Assembly: GCF_018977255.1 (NCBI RefSeq)
Contig: NW_024704752.1
Span: forward strand, 9,672,001-9,736,000
Direction of reading: 5' to 3'
DNA from: Callorhinchus milii
Lineage: Eukaryota
DNA length: 64,000 nucleotides
Numbering within the stretch: the first letter of the stretch is position 1; every line of letters begins with the position of its first letter. The notes below the pieces were generated by a model that saw only the letters and a program-made list of their open reading frames with translations, was not told the DNA's origin and did no database searches. Of this stretch, positions 5,210-63,439 are shown one piece after another. The position numbers and the translations under genes were made by a program.

Positions 5210-5482
<273 letters not shown>

Positions 5483-22454: not shown

Positions 22455-25400
22455 TGCTGCCGCAGTTGACCCGAGCTGTTTCTCCAAGACGTTCCCGTTC
22501 CCTTCCCTCCACTACTCCCGCTCAACCCTCCTCTCCCTCTGCCTGCACCGACTCCTGTCCCTCCTCGACTCCCCAACGGCCTCCCTCTGCTCCTCCCTTC
22601 ACATTCTTTGTTGTGCCCACTGTGGTAGACACCGTCGGCTGTCCTGCAGCATCCATCCTGATTGCGTCTTCCCCCACTCTCGTCACAAGGCCCACCGGCC
22701 TTCACTCACGGGAGCCAACCTTTCCTCCCTCACTCACATCCCCATCTAATCCGTCTGCCCACCTCTCATCCCCCCCCACACTCCCACCACTAACTGTCCC
22801 CTCTGCAGAACGTTCGCTCATTAACCAACAAATCCCTCACAATCCATGACCTGACGTCGAGGAAAAAATATCGACATCCTCAACGAAACCTGGGTCACCC
22901 CAGGCGACACCTTCCCACTAGTTGAGGCCACACCTCCGTTACACCTTTCACCAAACCCCACAGCCTAATCGCCATGGCGGTGGTGTGGCTCTCATCTCCC
23001 AGTCCCCCCTCGGCCTTTCCCCTTACTCCTCTGGAACCTTCCCCTCCTTTGAACACCTTACCCTCTATCCACCCCTCCAGGCTTTTTCAAAATCCTTCTT
23101 GTTTACCGTCCCCCCACCTTCCTCTCGGGCATCTCCACCCTCCTGTCTTAGGTGATTTCAACCTCCACTTCACCCCCTCCTGCTCTAGCTCTACCGACTT
23201 CTCCTCCCTCCTCTCTTCCCTTAACCTCTCCCTCCTCATGCATTACCCCACCCATGGCCACCCCCTTGACCTGGTGATCACCCGGGGCCTCACCGTCTCA
23301 GACATCACCATCGTCGATAAATCCATCTCGGACTACCACTTTATCTCCCTCAACACCTCAGTACCCCATCCCCTTTCCCAACTCTCCACCATTACATACC
23401 ATCCATGGAAAAAATTTCCTCCGTCTCCCTCTCCACTGCCCTGGAGTCATCTGAACTCCACCTCTAGCCCTCACTGACCGATCTCCCTTCCTCACTCTCC
23501 TTTCTCCACAACTCCCTCTCCTCCATTCTGGAATCCCTTGCCCCCCTCATCTCCCGAACTGCCTCATACTCCCGTAAATCCCCCTGGTACACCAGCCATC
23601 TCCGTTCCCTCAAGGCACAAGTGCAAGCTGCCGAACGCGCCTGGACCAAATCCAAACTAACGGTCCATTGGCAGATTTGGTTTCACCACACCTACCAGAC
23701 CTACCGCTGTGTTCTTGCCTCCGCCAAATCCCCCTTCTACTCCAAGGTTATTTTGGAGGGAAAGGACAACCCCAGGCTTCTCTTTTCCACCACTAACCAT
23801 CTCCTCCATCCACCTTTCCATGCCTCGCCCATCCTCTCCTCAAACGCCGTGAGGAGATGCTGGACTTCCTCGAATCTAAAATCGAGGGGATACGTTCAAC
23901 CACTTCAGCCCTGTCCACAGCCACCCCCACATCACCTCTCCCTCATGACCCACCCCCCACCCATCCCCCCCTATACTCTTTCAACCCTGTCTCTCCCTCC
24001 TCCCTCACCACGACTCTCCGCAAACTCAAACCCACCACCTGCTCTCTCGATCCCATCCCCACCTCTCTCCTTGTCTCCCAGCTCCACCTTCTGGCTCCTC
24101 TCCTGTCTGATGTCATCAACCTCTTCTTATCCACCAGTTCAGTTCCCACCCTCCTAAAAACAGACGTCATTACCCCCATCTTGAAAAACCCTTCCCTGGA
24201 ACCATCCCTCCTCTCCAGCTACTGCCCCATCTCTAACCTCCCATTCCTCTCCAAGGTCCTGGAATGAGTCGTCGCGTCCCAGCTCCGCTCCTTTCTCTCT
24301 TGCCATTCCCTCTTTGAACCCCTCCAATCCGGCTTCCGCGCTGCCCACAGCACGGAAACAGCCCTGCTCAAAGTCACTAATGACATTCTGAACATCTGTG
24401 ATCAAGGCTCCCTCTGCCTCCTTGTCCTCCTCGACCTCTCTACCGCCTTCAACACTGTCACCGCCTTCAATCTTCGCGGACCTGCCCTTGCCTGGTTCGA
24501 TTCCTATCTCTCTCACCGTCTCCACTTTGTTGCCTCTAACGGTTTCTCCTCCAGCCCCCGCACTATCACGTCTGTAGTCCCCCAGGGCTCTGTCCTTGGC
24601 CCTCTCCTCTTTAACATCTACATGCTCCCCCTTGGTGACATCATCCGCAGACATGGGGTCAATTTCCACATGTATGCGGATGACACCCAACTCTATCTTT
24701 CTGCCTCCACCCTCAACTCCAGGACCACTGCTGTCCTGACAGACTATCTGTCGGACATCGTCCTGGATGAGGGGAAATTTCCTTCAGTTGAATGTGAACA
24801 AGACTGAGGCCTTCCTGATTGGCTCGCGCCAGCTCCTCAGGCTCTGGCAGCATCAACTTCCATGGTTGCACACTACAACTCACCAAACCAGTCAGGAACC
24901 TAGGTGCCTTATTCGACCCTCAACTGTCTTTTCTCCCCAACATTCAAGCCATGACCCGCTCTGTCTTCCCTCACCTCTGTAACATCGCCCGACTCCACTA
25001 CCTCACCCCTCAGGCCGCTGAAACTCTTGTTCATGCCTTCATCATCTCCAGGCTCAACTATGCAAACGCTCTGCTTGTCAGCCTTCCCAACTCCTCCCTC
25101 CACAGGCTGAAGATAATCCAGAACTCTGCAGCCCGTATCCTCTCCCACGCCAAACTCCATGACCCCATCTCCCCCATTCTCGCCCGACTCCATTGGCTCC
25201 CTATCCTTCAGAGGATCTAGTTCAAGATCCTGGTCCTCACATACAAAGCCCTCCATGGCCTCGTCCCACCCTACCTCTGCGACCTCGTAACCCCCTACCA
25301 ATCCACCCATTCACTCCGCTCAGCCAGCTCTGGCCTGTTCCACGTCCCCCAACCTATCCGCTCCACCATTGGTGGGAGAGCCTTCAGCCACTCTGCCCCC

Positions 25401-25618
25401 AACCTCTGGAATTCCATCCCCCAGTCGCTCTGCCTCGCACCCTCCTTATCCTCCTTCAAGTCCCACCTCAAGACCCTCCTCTTCGACCATGCCATCGGCC
25501 ACCCCCCTTCCCCTCCCCTCCCTTTCCCCCCACCGACCCCAGCTCGGGTCTGAAATGCTACAGCACCTTGAGACATCCTCCCGATGTGAAAGGTGCTAGA
25601 CAAATGTAATCTTGTTGT
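22455..25618 (+). mobile_element. Near-full-length, degenerate single-ORF L2-clade LINE
   Basis: Frameshifted APE endonuclease (NETW, GGGVA, LGDFN, LDLVITRG), RT ([22 protein letters not shown] at 24673), LHWLP C-terminus, 3' stem-loop and ttg tail; 5' boundary approximate. Confidence 0.93.
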
Positions 25619-27250: not shown

Positions 27251-29084
27251 TGGTTCTGTTTTTGATTTCATTGTTTGTTCCTCTGCTGCCAGGATAGGAT
27301 GTGAGTGCAGTGTGTGTGTGTTCATGATCCCACAGACCTAATTTATAAATCAGCCTCTCCAATGTCACTTTATTCTAGTCCACTTTCCAACGTGTAAAAA
27401 AAGATCCCTCTTCTTTATATGACTTAAAAAATAATCATGCTGAAAGTTTGGATAGATCATCTTCACACAGAAGCACTTTGTATTTATTGACTTGAATAAG
27501 TTATACGTGAGGGGCCTCCACACTCTTGTGCTCTTTTCATCCTGTGACGTGCTCAAACAAACTGCTGTGAGCTGCTTGAAACCTTACCTAGCACAGTGAA
27601 ACCGTACTTCTGTGCTCTGCAAACCAGATTGCTTAACTTAACCCTTTATGTTTACAAGGCTGATAAAATGAGTAGCATTTCCTTATATTAAGTATGTTTG
27701 GTCTCCTTGGGGCTCAACTGGTTCTGAGATGAAGAAAAGGACACAGCAAGCCAGGGCACTGTTCATATTTGACAAGCTCCAAAAACATGGTGGTAGTACA
27801 ATAAATCTGTTTCTACACTGTCATCTTGATGGCGGTTATAAACATACTGTGAGGTGTGTGGGAGTCTTCCTGGAATTGAATTATCTCTCGAAGAGACAGA
27901 CTTGCTGAAGGCAAACGATCTGCAATAATTTAAGGACCTGTTATTGGCTGACTATACTACCACTTCCTCAATGAGACTTGGTGCTGCAGACACATCCTCA
28001 ACCTTATGAGCCAAAGCTCTGCTGCACTGGGCAGTCTTAGTTGGACTAGTACTATGAAGTACAGTTCCAGATATGCCAACAATTCCTGATAAGTAGCTAA
28101 TCCTCATGTATGAGTCTGGACAGTAAATAGTCTGCTATCACCTGGTGTCAACACACCCACACTCCCAACTAAATAATGATTGACTGCAAAAGATTTTCAC
28201 ATACCAGACTTAAAAAATGGGAGTGATCACAGTACATTAGCCAGTAACGTGACTTGTAGCTGGAAATGTTTCCTACTGATGTTCCGAGGTAAGTGAGGAT
28301 GCTGCAAAAATATTTACTACTGGGAAATAAATAAGCTCTTGAACCAGCAAAAAACATCTGTTTGAAATTGGAAAGAGCTAACAACCTTATGATCACGTGG
28401 AATCCAACTGTGATGTTTCACAACAGTGAGCTGCAGATTCAATTAACTGTTGCTTGAAATGTATCACACAAATTTACATAAACATTACAGCACAGAAACA
28501 GGCCATTCAGCCATGCTGGTGTTTATAAAATTGGTCACTCACTTCATGGCTGTTTGTGGGACATTGCTGTGCGCAAATTGGCTGCTGCGTTCGGCCACAA
28601 AATCCAGTCACTGCACCTTACAGTATATTCTGTGAAACACTTTGGGTTGATCCTCCTAACGTGAAAGATGCTATAAGAGATCTAAAGATTATGTTATATT
28701 CCACATGAGCCTTCAACCCTCTACCCTTTATTAACTTCTCTCTCGTGTGTGCAGCAAATTTCCTCTTAAATATGTTAATGCTTTCTGCTCCTGCAGTGAA
28801 TTTTACATTCTCATCACCAACTGTGTGAAGAAATTCTTCCATAACACCTATTCTTTATTGTTTGCTACTAGCTATAATATACTTATGTCCCAATTGTTTA
28901 TCCAATCCTTTCAAAAATTCGTTTCAAAATACCTCTATCTGGTCCACTCTCAATTATCTCATCTACAATCTTTCTTGAAGCCTATGTCCACTCATCCCTG
29001 AAACTTGCTTTAAAAATAATAAATATGTTCTCTGTATGATAATAAATAATCCTTTCAGTGCTTTCCAGGGAAGTGCAGTGCAGT

Positions 29085-30315
29085 AATCCTTCAGTCGGGT
29101 TTCCGTGCTGCCTACAGCACGGAAACCGCTCTGGTCAAGGTCACCAATGACATCTTGACCATCTGCGACCAGGGCTCCCTCTGCCTCCTCGCCCTCCTCG
29201 ACCTATCGGCAGCATTCGATACGGTCGACCATGCTATCCACCGCTTGTCCTCCCACCTCAACCTTCAAGGTCCTGTCCTTGAGTGGTTTAGGTCGTACCT
29301 CTACCACCGTCTTCATTTTGTTTCCACAAACGGCTTTTCCTCCGACCCCCGCACTGTCTCGTTCGGTGTCCCTCGGGGCTCTGTCCTCAGTCCCCTCCTC
29401 TTCACCCTCTATATGCTCCCCCTTGGTGGCATCATCCGCAGACATGGGGTTAACTTCCACATGTATGCGGATGACATCCAACTCTACCTTTCATCCTCTA
29501 CACTCAACTCCACGACCACTGATGTCCTGACAGCTGCCTGTCCGACACCGAGTCCTGGACGAGAGAGAACTTTCTGCAGCTCAACGTGCGCAAAACTAAG
29601 GCCCTTCTGATTGGCTCACGTCAGCGCCTCCGCACCTCAGGCGCTGACAGCATCAGCATCCAAGGCTGCACTCTCCACCTCTCAAAGCCAGTCGGGAACC
29701 TCTGCGTTCTGTTCGACCCTGAGCTGTCCTTTCTTCCTCATATCCGCGCCACAACTGGCACCGCCTTCCATCACTTCCGAAACAGCGCCAGACTACGCAT
29801 TACCTCACCCCTCACGCTGCTGAAACTCTGGTCCACGCCTTTATCACCTCAAGACTGGACTATGGGAACTCTCTCTTCGCCGGCCTTCCCGGCGCCTCCC
29901 TCCACAAGCTGCAGGTCATTCAGAACTCTGCAGCTCATGTACTGTCCCGCACCAGGCTTCGGGACCACGTCACTCCCACCCTCGCTGACCTCCACTGGCT
30001 TCCCATTCCCCAGAGGAACGAATTCAAGATCCTCATCCTCACCTACAAGCCTCTCAGCCCCGAGGCTCTGGAACTCCATCCCCCAGTGCCTTCGCCTTGC
30101 TTCCTCCCTTTCCTCCTTCAAGGCCGGTCTCAAGACCTTTCTCTTTGACCGTGCCTTCAGCTCCCCTCTCGACTCTCTACCCCCTCCTCGCTCCCTCCCT
30201 CCCCTCACCCTGACCATTTACCCCCTGCTCGGGTCCTGACCCAACTGTACAGCACCTTGGGACATCCTCCCGACGTGAAAGGCGCTCTATAAATGGAATC
30301 TTATTGTTGTTATTA
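29085..30315 (+). mobile_element. 5'-truncated L2 LINE with an internal deletion
   Basis: LLDLSAAFDTVDH, YADD at 29464, 3' tail gacgtgaaaggcgctctataaatggaatc-ttg. Confidence 0.93.
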
Positions 30316-40078: not shown

Positions 40079-42929
40079 GTAGGTGCCATGCATATGTGAC
40101 TCAGTCTGGTGATCGGTTTCCATGTGTCAGCTGCCTAGCTGACCTAAAAAAAACTTACCATTTCTTTTACAGCATTTTCCTCTTTGCTTCACTTCTGGTC
40201 TCACTCAGTTCCCTCTGGTTTAACTTCCCCCCCTTTATTCTATCACTGCTTGAGAAAACTCTTAATGACCGAATGTGCGTTGCCCAGCATCATAGACTTT
40301 GTCTGGAACAAGCAAGGAGAGTGGAGGGTCCAAAACAGTCAAGACATTTGTACATTTTGAACTGTCTGAGTAAATATACTGTCAGGCTGCTGCAGTGTAT
40401 ATAATGACCAGAGTGTCCGCTACATCAAAATATTATGAAATTGCAGACATGTGCCTGCACTGCTAGTGGATGAGTTCGTCATTGAGATATTTCCACAAAT
40501 GAAGCATTGCAGAAGAGACTTGATGCTGACCTGGGAGTAACACAGAGAACCTTTGCCTCTTCAGGAGTCAATAAATGCTTCCCTCCTCTGCTCCAAGGAA
40601 TCTGGGTTTTAGCACTGACCACATGCGGGTTGTGTTGAGTGTGACATACCAGATGGAGCACGGGAAGCGTCTACCTCCAGTTCTATTCCAGACACAATGC
40701 AGGATCTCGGCAGTCAAACACTAACTCACTGGAAACTGAGCTGGAGTCAGAGAGGCTGCAGCAATGAGCTGACACTTATCTTTCCTCCTGATGTTTACTT
40801 CCTTTCGATACATTAACCCATCTTTCGCTTTCAAACACTGATCCACATGCTGTGCAGCACCCCATGCTTTGTTTTTAATTTCAGACTCAAGAATTTGTCT
40901 TTTCTTTTCAAACTCTATTGAGATCTTTATTTTCCCGGTTCTGTTTATCTCATTTGCAGTCCACGTGTTTTCTAAAAGATACTCATCCATTCGGTTTTGA
41001 ACGAGATTCTGCTGCAGAATCAACAATTTTTCCTGTGAGTTTCTTCCACTAATCTTTGGGGAAGAAGTTTCTTCTGATCTCTAATTCTGCTTGGCTTTTC
41101 ATTTCAAACCAAACTTGCCAACCTGCGCCTAATACTCTGGAATAAGGCAAGCAAGATGTGCCCCTCAGGGGAGAGAGTGTGATTTGGATACACTTAAAGC
41201 TGCTGATGGGTTTCTGTATGTGTCAGAAACCTGGTTGACCAAAGAAAATTCTGCTCTTCCTGTAAAACTCTCATTCACCTCATCTCAGCCCTACCCCAAA
41301 GTCTCAGTCAAACTCATTTGGGTTCCTCTAACCTTTTGCACTTCTGTGTAAAATTAGACAGGTGTTTTCTCAAGATGTCACAGCTTTAAGGATTAGCAAA
41401 CCAGTAAAGTTTGAGGCGTTTTCCATTGTACCTTCCTTTGTACTACAGTTGATCCTGCATCCTGGTCTTGTGGGCATTTGCAAAGCACATTCTCACAAGC
41501 CATTGGGTTGGAGAATAAGCAGATTTTTTAGTCCAGAACATACACTGGTTCAGCACAATCTGTCAGAGGATTGTACGACAAAACCACTCACAGAAGTTGT
41601 TGGGAGCATATGAGTTGTGATTTACATGGTGCTCTGTGTTTCGTGCTGCACATTATACAAATTTCTACAATACGACCCAGGTTACACATATCTGAAGCCC
41701 TCAGTTGCTTCTGGCTACCTTTGATAAACAGTTAGAATGAAATTACAAAACGTTCAGAACTGACTGCCCTGTAATAACAGTTTGAGGACAAAGAAATACT
41801 GTTTCAGTCCTGGAGCACCCACTAAACACATGTCAAACATATTGCAGTGAGCTCCGTCTAGCCTTCTGTGTACGAGTCCACCGATTCAGCTAATTACCAA
41901 TCGGGCATGGGTAACTGCAAGCAGAGTTTATTGTGGGAATTCACAGAGGCCAACATTATGTGGAAATAGAGAAGAATTAATATTTGTTTTAGTGAGAAGC
42001 TTATTTTCCCTTCCTTCAATCTGAGAGGTTGCGTGATTTCTGGAAGCTGACTCATTAACAGGTCTGGACCACTCGATTAAAAACAACTGCTGGAATCTCT
42101 GGAAAAATAAATGTACAATATTGCTCGTCTGGAATTATCCAAACTCCCTAACCTTTAACTTGCTGTTCCGATGAGATTTCGGAAAAGACACTGCTTTAGA
42201 ACTTATGGAATTGTTTAATACTTATTGCCATCCTCTGCAGCCTCCCTGAGTTTCACCCTGATACGTGTTGCGTTCAGGAACAGGTCATTCTATGTTAAAT
42301 TGCACCTTGTATTGACATTGTCACTTGTCTCAATTTAGCTGCTTTCTAGATGGTTGATTCAGAAATGCCTTAAGTGAATGCCACGATATTTACAACAACT
42401 TGAATTTATATTGCGCCCTTTGCACGGTGTAGTGTCCTGGAGCACTTCACAGCGTTGAAGTTGAATGCTGAACCATAAATGTCATCTTTCTCCTTTGTAG
42501 AGAGCGTGGCATGGAGGGGGAGAGGAGGGAAAGTGGCTGTGCTTTTAACTTTCTGGCCTGTACAATAACAAAAAGTTATGACACAGTTTAAGACCTTGTG
42601 GGAGGTAATGAATGAACTGAAGGGGGATTGAAATCTTTGAAATCAGTAATAAACAGTTTGTCTCCCCCAATCCCTTGGTTCCAAAATGAAGAATAATACT
42701 TTTAAAATCTACTGTTAGAATTACTTGTCGAAACAAAGCGGCTCACTGTATATTTTTGGAGATTTCTCGGAACACTTAAGCTCTTTTCAGCAGTCAGGAA
42801 TCTGCAGCTTCCTGCCAAATGGAACTCTTCTCTTTGTTTTTTTTAACAATTTTCTGAGCATGTCGGGCGGAGGTCAGCACCCAGAGGAGGCAAAGGAGGC
42901 AGGTAACGTGGCTGTAGTGAGCAGGATTG

Positions 42930-55324: not shown

Positions 55325-55430
55325 ATGCTGTTGAGGATGCTGATGCTGTGTTTGTTGTTGTTTGTGGACGTGACCCTGACTGTCCCACTGAGCAAAGATG
55401 TGTACAAACTCCCAGCCGGAGCCTTGGAAG
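55325..55430 (+). CDS. PRSS56: PRSS56 exon 1 (signal peptide)
   Basis: aggATG; MLLRMLMLCLLLFVDVTLTVPLSKDVYKLPAGALE, G|gttagt; hydrophobic leader, and YKLPAGALE matches human YTRLPPSALQ. Confidence 0.85.
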
Positions 55431-58509: not shown

Positions 58510-58668
58510 TGCTGTCAAGCAAAGGTACAATGATATTGGAGGTAGCCATGAAGAATGCACTGTTGGTGCTGGAAGAGCTGGTGAAGGACAGGAATCTGCG
58601 ACTGATGGAATGTGCTTACTGTATCCCATGTCTGTTTAAGAGCTGTGGCAACAGGACAGCGCAGTGTG
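58510..58668 (+). CDS. PRSS56: PRSS56 exon 2 (pro-region)
   Basis: ggcag|TG...TGT G|gtaagt; 159 nt, phase 1-1; VLSSKGTMILEVAMKNALLVLEELVKDRNLRLMECAYCIPCLFKSCGNRTAQC versus human VLSAQGTQALQAA...HEC. Confidence 0.88.
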
Positions 58669-59296
58669 GTAAGTGAAACGTTTCAAGTGTAATTGTGCAT
58701 CTACCTCTCTGGAAAATTGCTCTCTTTCTAATTTACCATCAGCAGACTTTCCAATAAGCCAGATCCTGTAGGACTGATGTGTAGAGACTGCACAGTGATT
58801 GCTCCTGAGAAAAATCTGAGTCAGTTTTATTGATACCACTGTCAATATTCTCCTCATTGTCCCTAATCTCTAAACACTCCGTTCTAAAAGTGGGATAAAG
58901 TCCCATCTGCCTGTTCAGGTGGACATTAAAGTTTCCACTGCACCATTCAATAGGATAAAGGAGTTTCTATGGTGATTTGAGCAACAATCCTTCAGGTGAA
59001 TTGATAATTCATCTCCGGACTAGTTATGTGACCTTGTTGTGTGAAAGTGGCCATTTGCCGATCACTATGCTGGACAATAATATTTTGAAGCTATTTGAGA
59101 CGCTTTGACATGATAAGTTCTATAAAGTTTTTGTTTCTTTATTTCTTCGCTTTCTATTTGTTTCAATTCAGATTTTGAGCATTTCTTGTTCTTATCTTGA
59201 TCAGATGCTATATGGGTCAAGCTCCATACTGTGTCTTTCTTAATTAAGATTTACTGTTGTTGTTCATTCTGAAAGTTTTCTTGCTTTGTGTTTCAG

Positions 59297-59497
59297 TCAG
59301 GGGCACCATGGCAAGCTCCGAGCCCAGCTGTGAAACACTTTCGGCAGCACAATCCCTTGAACCAGAGACAGTGCGCAACTGGGAGCTGAGTAAAGCCTGC
59401 TGGTATTATCAGAGGCACTGCCAGCAGGGAACACGCCGGGAGGAGAGCTGCCTGAGAGAGATGCAAGAACGATGTCACTCACACATACTTCAGTGCA
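59297..59497 (+). CDS. PRSS56: PRSS56 extra exon 3 (six-cysteine module)
   Basis: tgtgtttcag|TC...TGC A|gtacgt; 201 nt, phase 1-1, open frame; EPSC-x22-C-x6-C-x9-C-x7-C-x6-C. Confidence 0.82.
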
Positions 59498-60085
59498 GTA
59501 CGTACTAGCTGACTAGCATGCTTCAGTGTAGTTTGTACCAGCTAAGCCCTCTTTACACTAGATACACAGAGCACTGGCTTCTGAGGGTTTCCAGTTACAT
59601 GGCACGGATCAACCCAGTACTCAGAATCAGTCAAATCTTTGCTGAAATCAAGTTGGACTGTAGAATGAGCTGTAATCCTCCCTGATCCTATCAGCCCTGG
59701 GCGAGAGGCGGTAGAGCTACATTTATACCCGTACGCTCTCTTCTTATTCTCAGATGGTTGGAGTTAATATTCTCATTATTAAGTAGGTTTCTCTATAATA
59801 ATTTGTCTTAAAGAAAAAAGCTAGCCCATTCTTCTGGTGAGTCAATTCATTGGTTGATGTGATATTGAGCACATCAATATGATTTCCAAGTTGAATCCTC
59901 TCTGTAGGAATGAATTTGTTGTTCCCAGCCTGGGCACTAACATTTCCTTTAGTATCTCTGTGTGGAGGGGAGGCGGGTAGTCAGCCGGTTTTTCTGCTTC
60001 TGATGACAATCCAATGAGTTTTGTTGGGATTCACTCACTTGTGGGTATGGTCTATGTGATGTGTAACAGTGTCTTGCCTTCACAG

Positions 60086-60139
60086 GTCTAACGAACAACA
60101 TGAAGACTCCAAAATCTGTGCTGAAGCCAGAAAGGAAAG
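60086..60139 (+). CDS. PRSS56: PRSS56 exon 4 (short linker)
   Basis: ccttcacag|GT...AAA G|gtaagc; 54 nt, phase 1-1; SLTNNMKTPKSVLKPERK; same position as the short linker exon before CGER in human. Confidence 0.75.
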
Positions 60140-60366
60140 GTAAGCAGGAGATCAGGTTTTTGGCGTTAAAGGTCACTTACATAAGAGGCATTTAGCAGAG
60201 GTTGATTGGCCTTTATAAATTATTGTTGCAAAGCTGAGTTATTATAGGGTGAAATACATGAGGCGTTGTAATTAGGTCTCTTGTTTTAGCCATGGCTTTG
60301 TGTATTGACATGCCGCAACTATGTTGACCTGCAGCAGTCATATTGACACCTCATTCTTTCTTTCAG

Positions 60367-60553
60367 CTTTGTGTGGTCAGAGAGCAGCGGCACCAAACCA
60401 TACCCTTGTGATGGGGAGAATCGTGGGCGGTCACATGGCGGCTCCCGGGAGCTGGCCCTGGCTGGTGCTGTTGAAGTTGAATGGGAACGTGATGTGTGGG
60501 GGAGTGCTGGTGCAGGACTCCTGGGTAGCGACAGCTGCACACTGCTTCACAGG
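60367..60553 (+). CDS. PRSS56: PRSS56 exon 5 (activation site and catalytic His)
   Basis: tttcag|CT...ACA GG|gtgagc; LCGQR...GR-IVGG...SWPWLV...CGGVLV...TAAHC. Confidence 0.95.
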
Positions 60554-61053
60554 GTGAGCGAGATATTGATTGTATTCAGAACCACCAGACTGATCAACGG
60601 AAGCGACATCATCACCTCACCAAACGTCTATTATTTGCTGATTTTGTTCATGTCTTGATTTTGTTTAGTGATTTAATGATTTGTCATGAAACACTGCAGC
60701 TTCTGTAACATTGAAGTTTCTAATTTCTGAGCCCTAATATTTCCAATGCATGTTCTTTAGCTGGAAGACTTAGGGTAGAGCTATGCAGTTACTTATCAAA
60801 AGTGTTGAAGTTCTCTCCTCCCCCCTTTCTTTCTCTGGTCATGCAGAATTGATTGAGATATTTGAAAGGGAGAGAGATAGAATGTTGGGAAATAAAGGCG
60901 TTAAGGATTATGGAGAAAGTGGTGAAATAGGATTAAAAGATCTGCCATGATCTAACAAAATGGTCCATTAATCTTATCAGACTGAATGGCTTATTCGCTT
61001 TCCTACGTTTGTTGTTACTGCTCACTCACCAACTGTCAATCATTCATCCACAG

Positions 61054-61162
61054 CAACAGAAATGAGAATTATTGGCAAGTTGTCACTGGTGAATACGATT
61101 TAAGCAAGCAAGACACTGAAGAAAGAATCACCCAAATCAATCGGATTATCATTCACCCCAAG
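61054..61162 (+). CDS. PRSS56: PRSS56 exon 6
   Basis: cacag|C...CCC AAG|gtagga; NRNENYWQVVTGEYDLSKQDTEERITQINRIIIHPK. Confidence 0.94.
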
Positions 61163-61948: not shown

Positions 61949-62108
61949 TTTAACCAGAGAACATTCAATAACGACATTGCCTTGCTGGAGCTGACGGTGC
62001 CGGTCTCTGTGTCTGAGCTGGTGAGCTCTGTGTGTATCCCTGAGAAGATCGAGGAACTTCCTGCTGGGACCATGTGCTACATTGCAGGCTGGGGCTCAGT
62101 CTATGAGG
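61949..62108 (+). CDS. PRSS56: PRSS56 exon 7 (catalytic Asp)
   Basis: cgcag|TTT...GAG G|gtaagg; FNQRTFNNDIALLEL...VCIPE...AGTMCYIAGWGSVYE. Confidence 0.95.
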
Positions 62109-63296: not shown

Positions 63297-63439
63297 ACGG
63301 GCCCTCTGCAGATATACTGATGGAGGCAAAGGTGCCCCTGCTGGCTCAGAGCACGTGCAAAACTGCGTTGGGGAAGGAGCTCATCACCAGCCAGATGTTC
63401 TGTGCCGGCTACCTGACCGGGAAGGTTGACTCCTGCCAG
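63297..63439 (+). CDS. PRSS56: PRSS56 exon 8 (to DSCQ; GDSGGP exon outside the window)
   Basis: cacag|AC...TGC CAG|gtgaga; [48 protein letters not shown]; S1 Asp indicates trypsin-like specificity. Confidence 0.95.

What the first reader, a model, noticed from the sequence alone, without database searches (positions are those of the whole stretch)
59297..59497. PRSS56 has a second, N-terminal copy of its six-cysteine module on an extra symmetric exon
Seen: a 201-nt phase 1-1 exon with good splice sites encoding MASSEPSC-x22-CWYYQRHC-x9-C-x7-C-x6-C, located in the pro-region before R-IVGG. Known (recalled): human PRSS56 has SSSREPSC-x19-CAFYARLC-x6-C-x7-C-x6-C only after the protease domain, and its pro-region runs from exon 2 straight to a short linker exon, which is matched here by 60086-60139. 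Inference: the protease here is flanked by duplicated, poorly characterised disulfide modules, and one was lost on the lineage to mammals (or gained here). This bears on the non-catalytic parts of a nanophthalmos/eye-size gene.
Basis: partly seen in the sequence, partly recalled or inferred. Interest (0 to 1): 0.72.

Follow-up and report, generated by a model that had tools for sequence, protein, structure and literature searches.

The report
Eye-size protease's lost twin module
In this cartilaginous fish, and in the sharks, rays, bony fishes, frog and lizards compared, the eye-size protease PRSS56 carries two related copies of a small unnamed six-cysteine module, one on each side of its enzyme domain; the mammals checked keep only the rear copy, which likely helps the enzyme fold or dock on its targets and whose last cysteine matches a reported human small-eye mutation.

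Summary
Observation confirmed. Window 59297-59497 is a 201-nt phase 1-1 exon of PRSS56 (AG/GT). Its junction to 60086 appears in one contig of a probable RNA run; the upstream junction was not seen. It encodes a six-cysteine, predicted three-helix module homologous to the post-protease module (HHalign 96.6%, E 6.5e-10; cysteine-fixed shuffles beaten for 30 of 31 modules). Both exons end one base after Cys6. The extra copy is not peculiar to this genome: sharks, rays, gar, teleosts, lungfish, frog and lizards have both copies, and front and rear copies form separate groups (100/100). So two copies are ancestral for jawed vertebrates and mammals lost the front one; 'gained here' is rejected. RefSeq models already include the exon. 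Eight literature searches found no description of the module, and there is no Pfam or fold match. Human variants C395R and E396K map to Cys6 of the retained copy and the next residue. Function is inferred: a non-catalytic folding/docking module. Birds, crocodilians and jawless fishes were not tested by sequence. The scan's earlier notes do not mention PRSS56.

The parts
55325..55430 (+). Exon 1: start codon, hydrophobic signal-peptide-like stretch, start of pro-region
   Evidence: Open frame and GT donor; resembles ray N-termini; absent from RefSeq models P0002 and P0006; not covered by a spliced contig
58510..58668 (+). Exon 2 (phase 1-1): long predicted helix plus a five-cysteine cluster
   Evidence: the five Cys are invariant in 118-119 ungapped orthologue rows
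59297..59497 (+). Exon 3 (phase 1-1): front copy of the six-cysteine three-helix module (the finding)
60086..60139 (+). Exon 4 (phase 1-1): poorly conserved linker
   Evidence: Junction from 59497 in one contig; 24% mean identity to 13 orthologues
60367..60553 (+). Exon 5: tethering Cys, activation site R|IVGG, catalytic His
61054..61162 (+). Exon 6: protease domain
61949..62108 (+). Exon 7: protease domain with catalytic Asp
63297..63439 (+). Exon 8: protease domain with the S1-pocket Asp; last exon inside the window. The gene runs on past the window end: exon 9 with the catalytic Ser is L004:1214-1373, and exon 10, the rear copy of the module (phase 1-1), is L004:2444-2632.

Best explanation
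The exon encodes a second copy of PRSS56's six-cysteine module, which likely arose by duplication of one phase 1-1 exon before cartilaginous and bony fishes split, was kept in most non-mammalian lineages compared and was lost on the line to mammals; each copy is predicted to be a small three-helix disulfide-stapled domain that likely serves folding and docking, not catalysis. Shown: exon, one splice junction, homology of the two copies, wide distribution, near-invariant cysteines. Predicted: three helices (AlphaFold2). Inferred: nested disulfides Cys1-Cys6, Cys2-Cys5, Cys3-Cys4, from an antiparallel helix 2/helix 3 hairpin; no coordinates were available to check them. Inferred from trypsin-family knowledge: after cleavage at R|IVGG the pro-chain stays tethered by the conserved Cys134-Cys259 pair (P0006 numbering; chymotrypsinogen 1-122 type), so the active enzyme would carry a module on each side. 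The committed mechanism is that these modules are non-catalytic interaction/folding units that place the secreted protease on its matrix or cell-surface targets, and that mammals run on the rear one alone. I put the evolutionary part at about 0.9 and the functional part at about 0.55.
For: Same exon phase (1-1) and same 3' boundary, one base after the Cys6 codon, in both copies. HHalign of 13 front against 18 rear modules: probability 96.6, E 6.5e-10, 61 columns. With cysteines fixed and other residues shuffled, 0 of 300 shuffles reached the real cross-score for 30 of 31 modules (goat 15 of 300); with the three residues before Cys1 also fixed, 0 of 300 for 29 of 31 (platypus 1, goat 39). The lungfish rear copy has the exact front-type spacing 22-6-9-7-6. 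Tree of 31 modules: front versus rear split 100/100, 1 label change. Both copies in 120 of 120 listed hits and in frog and lungfish; front copy in coelacanth. Front exon 43% mean identity to 13 orthologues, against 46% for the rear exon and 24% for the linker; its six Cys are kept in at least 99% of ungapped rows. Module model: mean pLDDT 85.8, helices 11-18, 23-40, 48-65; the full-length model gives the same three helices in both copies. Mammalian absence: goat model has 117 residues before IVGG against 165-205 in seven two-copy proteins; human Ile105 and Gly107 (PMC13238036) match the goat IVGG, so the human pre-pro-region is 104 residues; mouse exon structure was cDNA-verified (PMC3137557). 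Need for the non-catalytic rear part: truncations that leave catalytic activity intact give the same small-eye phenotype as the null in mice (PMC5864079); human C395R (PMC3137557) and E396K (PMC13238036) map to Cys6 and the next residue, 9 of 9 paper-cited residues matching the goat sequence at offsets 13 and 14.
Against: No functional data on the front copy at all. Splicing support is 1 contig of depth 2.8 for one junction. The 120 listed hits are the top of 196 and ranked by score, which favours two-copy proteins; the other 76 were not visible, so 120 of 120 is not a prevalence. Gene models can skip this exon: the Ensembl-derived gar model P0027 lacks it while RefSeq-type gar P0174 has it, so absence in single models (snake P0137, platypus P0097 and P0166, turtle P0058, sturgeon P0138) is not proof. 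Mammalian absence rests on one goat model, two 5'-incomplete platypus models and paper numbering; no mammalian genome was read. The truncations also remove the tail beyond the module, and C395R was found heterozygous with phase unverified, so neither isolates the module's role. The copies have diverged (about 20% identity in this species) and keep different conserved residues, so they may not do the same job. No outgroup, so which copy came first is unknown.
Confidence: 0.65

Rival explanations
1. The front copy is a zymogen-control element: with exon 2 it forms a pro-domain that shields the activation site or active site until cleavage, so its loss in mammals would change how PRSS56 is activated.
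For: It sits about 35 residues before R|IVGG and has its own strongly kept patch (Trp 100%, Leu 99%, Ser 100% in 120 rows) that the rear copy lacks.
Against: The homologous rear copy cannot act as a cleavable pro-piece; the mammalian enzyme is active and needed without the front copy (PMC5864079 passages).
Confidence: 0.2
2. The module is not an autonomous domain; it is one piece of a larger helical, disulfide-linked scaffold formed with exon 2 and the tail, and only stabilises the secreted protein.
For: Exon 2 has an odd number (5) of invariant Cys and the tail has one near-invariant Cys (121 of 122 rows), which could pair at long range (inference). Rear helix 3 is predicted to run on into the next exon (residues 429-469). 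No copy was found in any other protein examined.
Against: The isolated module gives a confident model (pLDDT 85.8), has an even six Cys, fills exactly one symmetric exon in both places, and can be absent from a protein that keeps exon 2 and the linker (goat).
Confidence: 0.25
3. The front copy is a chimaera-specific gain, or a chance cysteine-rich reading in an intron.
For: Pairwise similarity of the two chimaera copies is weak (E 0.011); no Pfam match.
Against: Spliced contig; orthologous front copies at 35-60% identity in 119 other listed proteins; tree split 100/100.
Confidence: 0.01

Closest known systems
Mammalian PRSS56 (human 603 aa, mouse 604 aa; PMC3137557, PMC5864079, PMC13238036)
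   Same: Secreted trypsin-like S1 protease, CHRND downstream, six-Cys module right after the protease, conserved C-terminal domain.
   Different: Mammals lack the front module (human protease starts at Ile105, against residue 192 in the spliced chimaera frame), have a reduced exon-2 Cys cluster in the goat model and a shorter tail. The papers seen describe only signal peptide, protease domain and 'C-terminal conserved domain'.
RefSeq/UniProt 'serine protease 56' models of C. milii (XP_042195174.1, XP_007887632.1), rays, gar, teleosts, lungfish, frog, lizards
   Same: They already contain this exon's sequence; the C. milii models match it 100%.
   Different: They give no domain name for it (Pfam lists only trypsin-type families). 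Both C. milii RefSeq models lack exon 1 and its signal-peptide-like start.
Class 1-1 exon-borne disulfide modules of extracellular modular proteases (EGF, kringle, LDLa, CCP; recalled from general knowledge, Patthy's exon-shuffling scheme)
   Same: One symmetric phase 1-1 exon per Cys-rich module, duplicated within a secreted protease gene.
   Different: Predicted all-helical; no match to any of those families in Pfam; one copy lies C-terminal to the protease; so far seen only in PRSS56.

Membership tests
PRSS56 orthologues | Trypsin S1 domain with R|IVGG activation site, His-Asp-Ser triad and S1 Asp | tested here: met
   Pfam Trypsin E 1.5e-71; motifs located
PRSS56 orthologues | CHRND as downstream neighbour (PMC3137557) | tested here: met
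   Exon about 12 kb beyond the window: best hits are acetylcholine receptor delta chains, E 1.8e-25
PRSS56 orthologues | ECEL1 as upstream neighbour (PMC3137557) | tested here: inconclusive
   A scan with a few recalled M13-protease motifs found no credible hit in the window; a PSMD1 exon lies near 5294-5413
PRSS56 orthologues | Post-protease six-Cys module and conserved C-terminal domain | tested here: met
   last 95 residues 50% mean identity to 13 orthologues
PRSS56 six-Cys module (is the front copy homologous to the rear copy?) | Six Cys in matching spacing and profile similarity beyond the cysteines | tested here: met
PRSS56 six-Cys module (is the front copy homologous to the rear copy?) | Same exon phase and boundary | tested here: met
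   Both 1-1, both end one base after Cys6; the 5' ends differ by two codons
PRSS56 six-Cys module (is the front copy homologous to the rear copy?) | Superimposable three-dimensional fold and same disulfide pairing | not testable with these tools
   Models gave secondary structure only; it agrees for both copies, but no coordinates were returned
Class 1-1 shuffled extracellular modules | Symmetric phase 1-1 exon | tested here: met
Class 1-1 shuffled extracellular modules | Occurs in several unrelated proteins | tested here: inconclusive
   Only PRSS56-type proteins scored among 283 stored proteins; 76 of 196 hits were not listed; own-genome searches were single-sequence
Any named Pfam or PDB cysteine-rich domain | Profile or fold match to a named family | tested here: inconclusive
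   No Pfam family at E<=1; best PDB sequence hit E 4.6; Foldseek best E 2.2; VIA-align best Z 5.4, rmsd 4.1, 60 aligned, a generic helical bundle

The most novel reading that the evidence does not exclude
The module is an unnamed, vertebrate-specific disulfide-stapled three-helix binding domain that aims PRSS56 at its eye-growth substrate. The ancestral enzyme was bivalent; mammals, and perhaps snakes independently (the Ahaetulla model keeps exon 2 and the linker but lacks this exon), dropped one arm. Human C395R and E396K would then cause nanophthalmos by breaking the only remaining arm, and fish and probably chick myopia models use a differently targeted enzyme than humans.
Probability: 0.2. 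Interest if true: 0.68.

Novelty: new variant of a known kind. Interest (0 to 1): 0.42.

Why it matters
The substrates of PRSS56 and the role of its non-catalytic parts are open: C-terminal truncations keep catalytic activity yet act like nulls (PMC5864079 passages). The duplication marks out a 60-67 residue unit with natural boundaries, doubles the sequence sample for it, and places two human variants on its last cysteine and the next residue. That gives a defined bait for pull-downs and a defined in-frame deletion. It also warns that zebrafish, frog and lizard PRSS56 carry a module the human enzyme lacks. The interest is limited because the exon is already in public gene models, loss of a duplicated module is a common event, and no function is shown.

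Tried and rejected
Single-sequence search with the exon found only the C. milii record (1 of 4 candidates). ESM Atlas: no usable feature hits for the front exon or the lungfish rear region; by structure only the PRSS56-like cluster itself (TM 0.78), others under 0.5. Fold searches with the module gave nothing above background; searches with the full-length model returned only protease-type matches, so the non-catalytic parts were not tested there. Absence of a match shows neither a new fold nor a different one. Complex prediction of residues 1-116 with 385-492 returned no verdict (score 0.01, alignment not used) and is not counted either way. No RNA holder was listed on record; X1 is RNA by the tool's guess. 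Runs X6, X8 and X9 laid nothing on 59220-60700, which is no evidence of absence; (X1, X6, X7, X2 over 9 kb) was dominated by repeats, with 718 joints not shown. Idea that the duplication included the next exon: the ten residues after Cys6 score in register above permutations (150 of 5000 as high), but shifts of 4 and 7 score equally, so inconclusive. No further internal repeat between pro-region and tail (second HHalign hit E 0.76). Own-genome searches with each copy found only the copy itself at a meaningful E (next best 1.7 and 1.9). Literature searches found no description of the module or its duplication; the library lacks most subscription papers, I did not read the 2011 discovery papers other than PMC3137557, and supplements were read for one paper only.

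Full report
Verdict. The exon is real and encodes a second, N-terminal copy of the PRSS56 six-cysteine module. Two copies are the likely ancestral state of jawed vertebrates, and mammals lost the front one. The exon is already in public gene models; I found no paper describing the module or its duplication.

Gene and exon. The window is G000:C11:9672001-9736000. The exon's translation matches a C. milii 'serine protease 56-like' record at 100%, and the current RefSeq model is named serine protease 56. An acetylcholine receptor delta exon lies downstream, the neighbour used to define PRSS56 orthologues in PMC3137557 (passages). Exons at 55325-55430, 58510-58668, 59297-59497, 60086-60139, 60367-60553, 61054-61162, 61949-62108 and 63297-63439, then L004:1214-1373 and L004:2444-2632 beyond the window, have GT donors and (internal exons) AG acceptors and give one open frame through the rear module. 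Exons 2, 3 and 4 and the rear-module exon are all phase 1-1.

Splicing. One 181-nt contig (depth 2.8) of run X1 joins 59497 to 60086 at GT..AG; the other 3 of 4 runs in that call laid nothing. X1 is RNA only by the tool's guess; a DNA-like run reads straight through this intron, and no second genomic copy was found. The upstream junction was not observed. The acceptor at 59297 is supported by gap-free alignment with ray proteins and by model P0006.

Homology of the two copies. Spacing is 22-6-9-7-6 in front and 21-6-8-7-6 at the rear; the lungfish rear copy has the front spacing. Both exons end one base after the Cys6 codon. Pairwise BLASTP is weak (E 0.011). HHalign of 13 front with 18 rear modules gives probability 96.6, E 6.5e-10. 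Cross-scores beat all 300 cysteine-fixed shuffles for 30 of 31 modules, the goat being the exception, and for 29 of 31 when the three residues before Cys1 are fixed as well. The modules were cut out with patterns containing that motif, which is why the stricter control was run.

Distribution and direction. A profile search returned 196 proteins among 7990 scored candidates; the 120 listed (chimaera, sharks, rays, gars, teleosts, lizards, one unnamed) all have one module on each side of the protease. This list is ranked by score and so favours two-copy proteins; 76 hits were not visible. Frog and lungfish have both copies and coelacanth the front copy in a C-terminally short model. In a tree of 31 modules, front and rear separate at 100/100, which places the duplication before the cartilaginous/bony split; without an outgroup the order of the copies is unknown. 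The front exon is about as conserved as the rear (43% against 46% mean identity to 13 orthologues; linker 24%).

Loss. The goat model goes from exon 2 to the linker, with 117 residues before IVGG against 165-205 in seven two-copy proteins. Human Ile105 and Gly107 (PMC13238036, section 12) match the goat IVGG, and the mouse exon structure was verified by cDNA (PMC3137557 passages). Two platypus models lack the module but are incomplete at the 5' end. The snake Ahaetulla model keeps exon 2 and the linker but lacks the module; a second loss is possible, but one gar model skips the exon while another has it, so single models prove little. Chicken PRSS56 is listed at 795 aa and Xenopus at 786 aa (PMC13762310 supplement, part 15 of 34), near the 779-811 aa of full-length two-copy lizard proteins; that is a length hint only.

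Structure. AlphaFold2 on a 21-row alignment gives three helices (11-18, 23-40, 48-65), mean pLDDT 85.8, pTM 0.67. The full-length model (mean pLDDT 64.4) shows the same three helices in both copies. Nested disulfides 1-6, 2-5, 3-4 are my inference from the helix layout. Rays have replaced rear Cys4 and carry a Cys three residues later, which some sharks have in addition; this fits a partner near the hairpin turn. No Pfam, PDB sequence or fold match stood out.

Mechanism. Activation site, catalytic triad and S1 Asp are intact. From general trypsin-family knowledge, the conserved Cys134 and Cys259 (P0006) would tether the pro-chain after cleavage, leaving a module on each side of the active enzyme. 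In mice and humans, truncations that keep catalytic activity give small eyes, and in mice match the null (PMC5864079 passages). Human C395R (PMC3137557) and E396K (PMC13238036) map to Cys6 of the rear copy and the next residue: 9 of 9 residues cited in those papers match the goat sequence at offsets 13 and 14 (a uniform offset of 13 missed C395 by one). I therefore favour a non-catalytic folding/docking role, about 0.55. Rivals are zymogen control by the front copy and a purely structural scaffold role. Nothing here tests the front copy's function.

Literature. Eight searches found no account of the module. Seen: passages of PMC13424129, PMC6987234, PMC3137557 and PMC5864079; passages plus one section of PMC8934544 and PMC13238036; passages plus one supplement part of PMC13762310; listings only for the rest. 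Unread supplements (for instance the alignments of PMC8934544) and subscription papers could show the extra region. Earlier scan notes hold no PRSS56 finding.

Score. New variant of a known kind; interest 0.42. It is a sound evolutionary observation that gives a usable domain definition for a disease gene, but it is annotated at sequence level and has no shown function.

Noticed in passing
window 55325-55430: A signal-peptide-like first exon matching ray N-termini lies 3 kb upstream of exon 2; both C. milii RefSeq models start at an internal Met, and the UniProt/Ensembl 415-aa model lacks the whole pro-region.
   Followed up: partly
window 58510-58668 and L004:5921-6033: Exon 2 has five invariant Cys (odd) and the tail one near-invariant Cys (121 of 122 rows); the goat keeps three plus one. 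A long-range pro-region-to-tail disulfide is possible (inference).
   Followed up: partly
L004:5921-6347 (last two exons; P0006 residues 671-765): The conserved C-terminal domain (50% identity) is predicted as helix, three strands, helix with pLDDT about 70-90 and has no Pfam match. The order recalls a dsRBD-like alpha-beta-beta-beta-alpha fold (from memory, untested); it was not folded or searched alone.
   Followed up: no
P0137 (Ahaetulla prasina model), P0046 (Crotalus model): Snake models lack the front module (P0137 keeps exon 2 and the linker; P0046 starts in the linker), a possible independent loss that needs genome checking.
   Followed up: partly
P0004, P0005, P0009-P0011 rear module: Rays and skates have Tyr or Ser in place of rear Cys4 and a Cys three residues later; two of three sharks shown have both cysteines.
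   Followed up: partly
PMC8934544 section 14: The zebrafish knockout paper numbers an exon-5 frameshift as Val24, which suggests that the model it used treated the upstream pro-region exons, front module included, as 5' UTR (inference).
   Followed up: no
window 5294-5413 (+): An exon of PSMD1 (E about 1e-19). No credible ECEL1-type motif was found between it and PRSS56, although ECEL1 is the upstream neighbour in human.
   Followed up: partly
window about 22900-25600 and 29000-30240 (+): Broken LINE-like reverse-transcriptase frames, recognised by eye from the translations, with strong negative GC skew; short high-copy repeats fill the PRSS56 introns.
   Followed up: no
window 40724-41080 (-): A 119-codon open frame with protein-like composition and no meaningful Pfam hit; unexplained.
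   Followed up: partly
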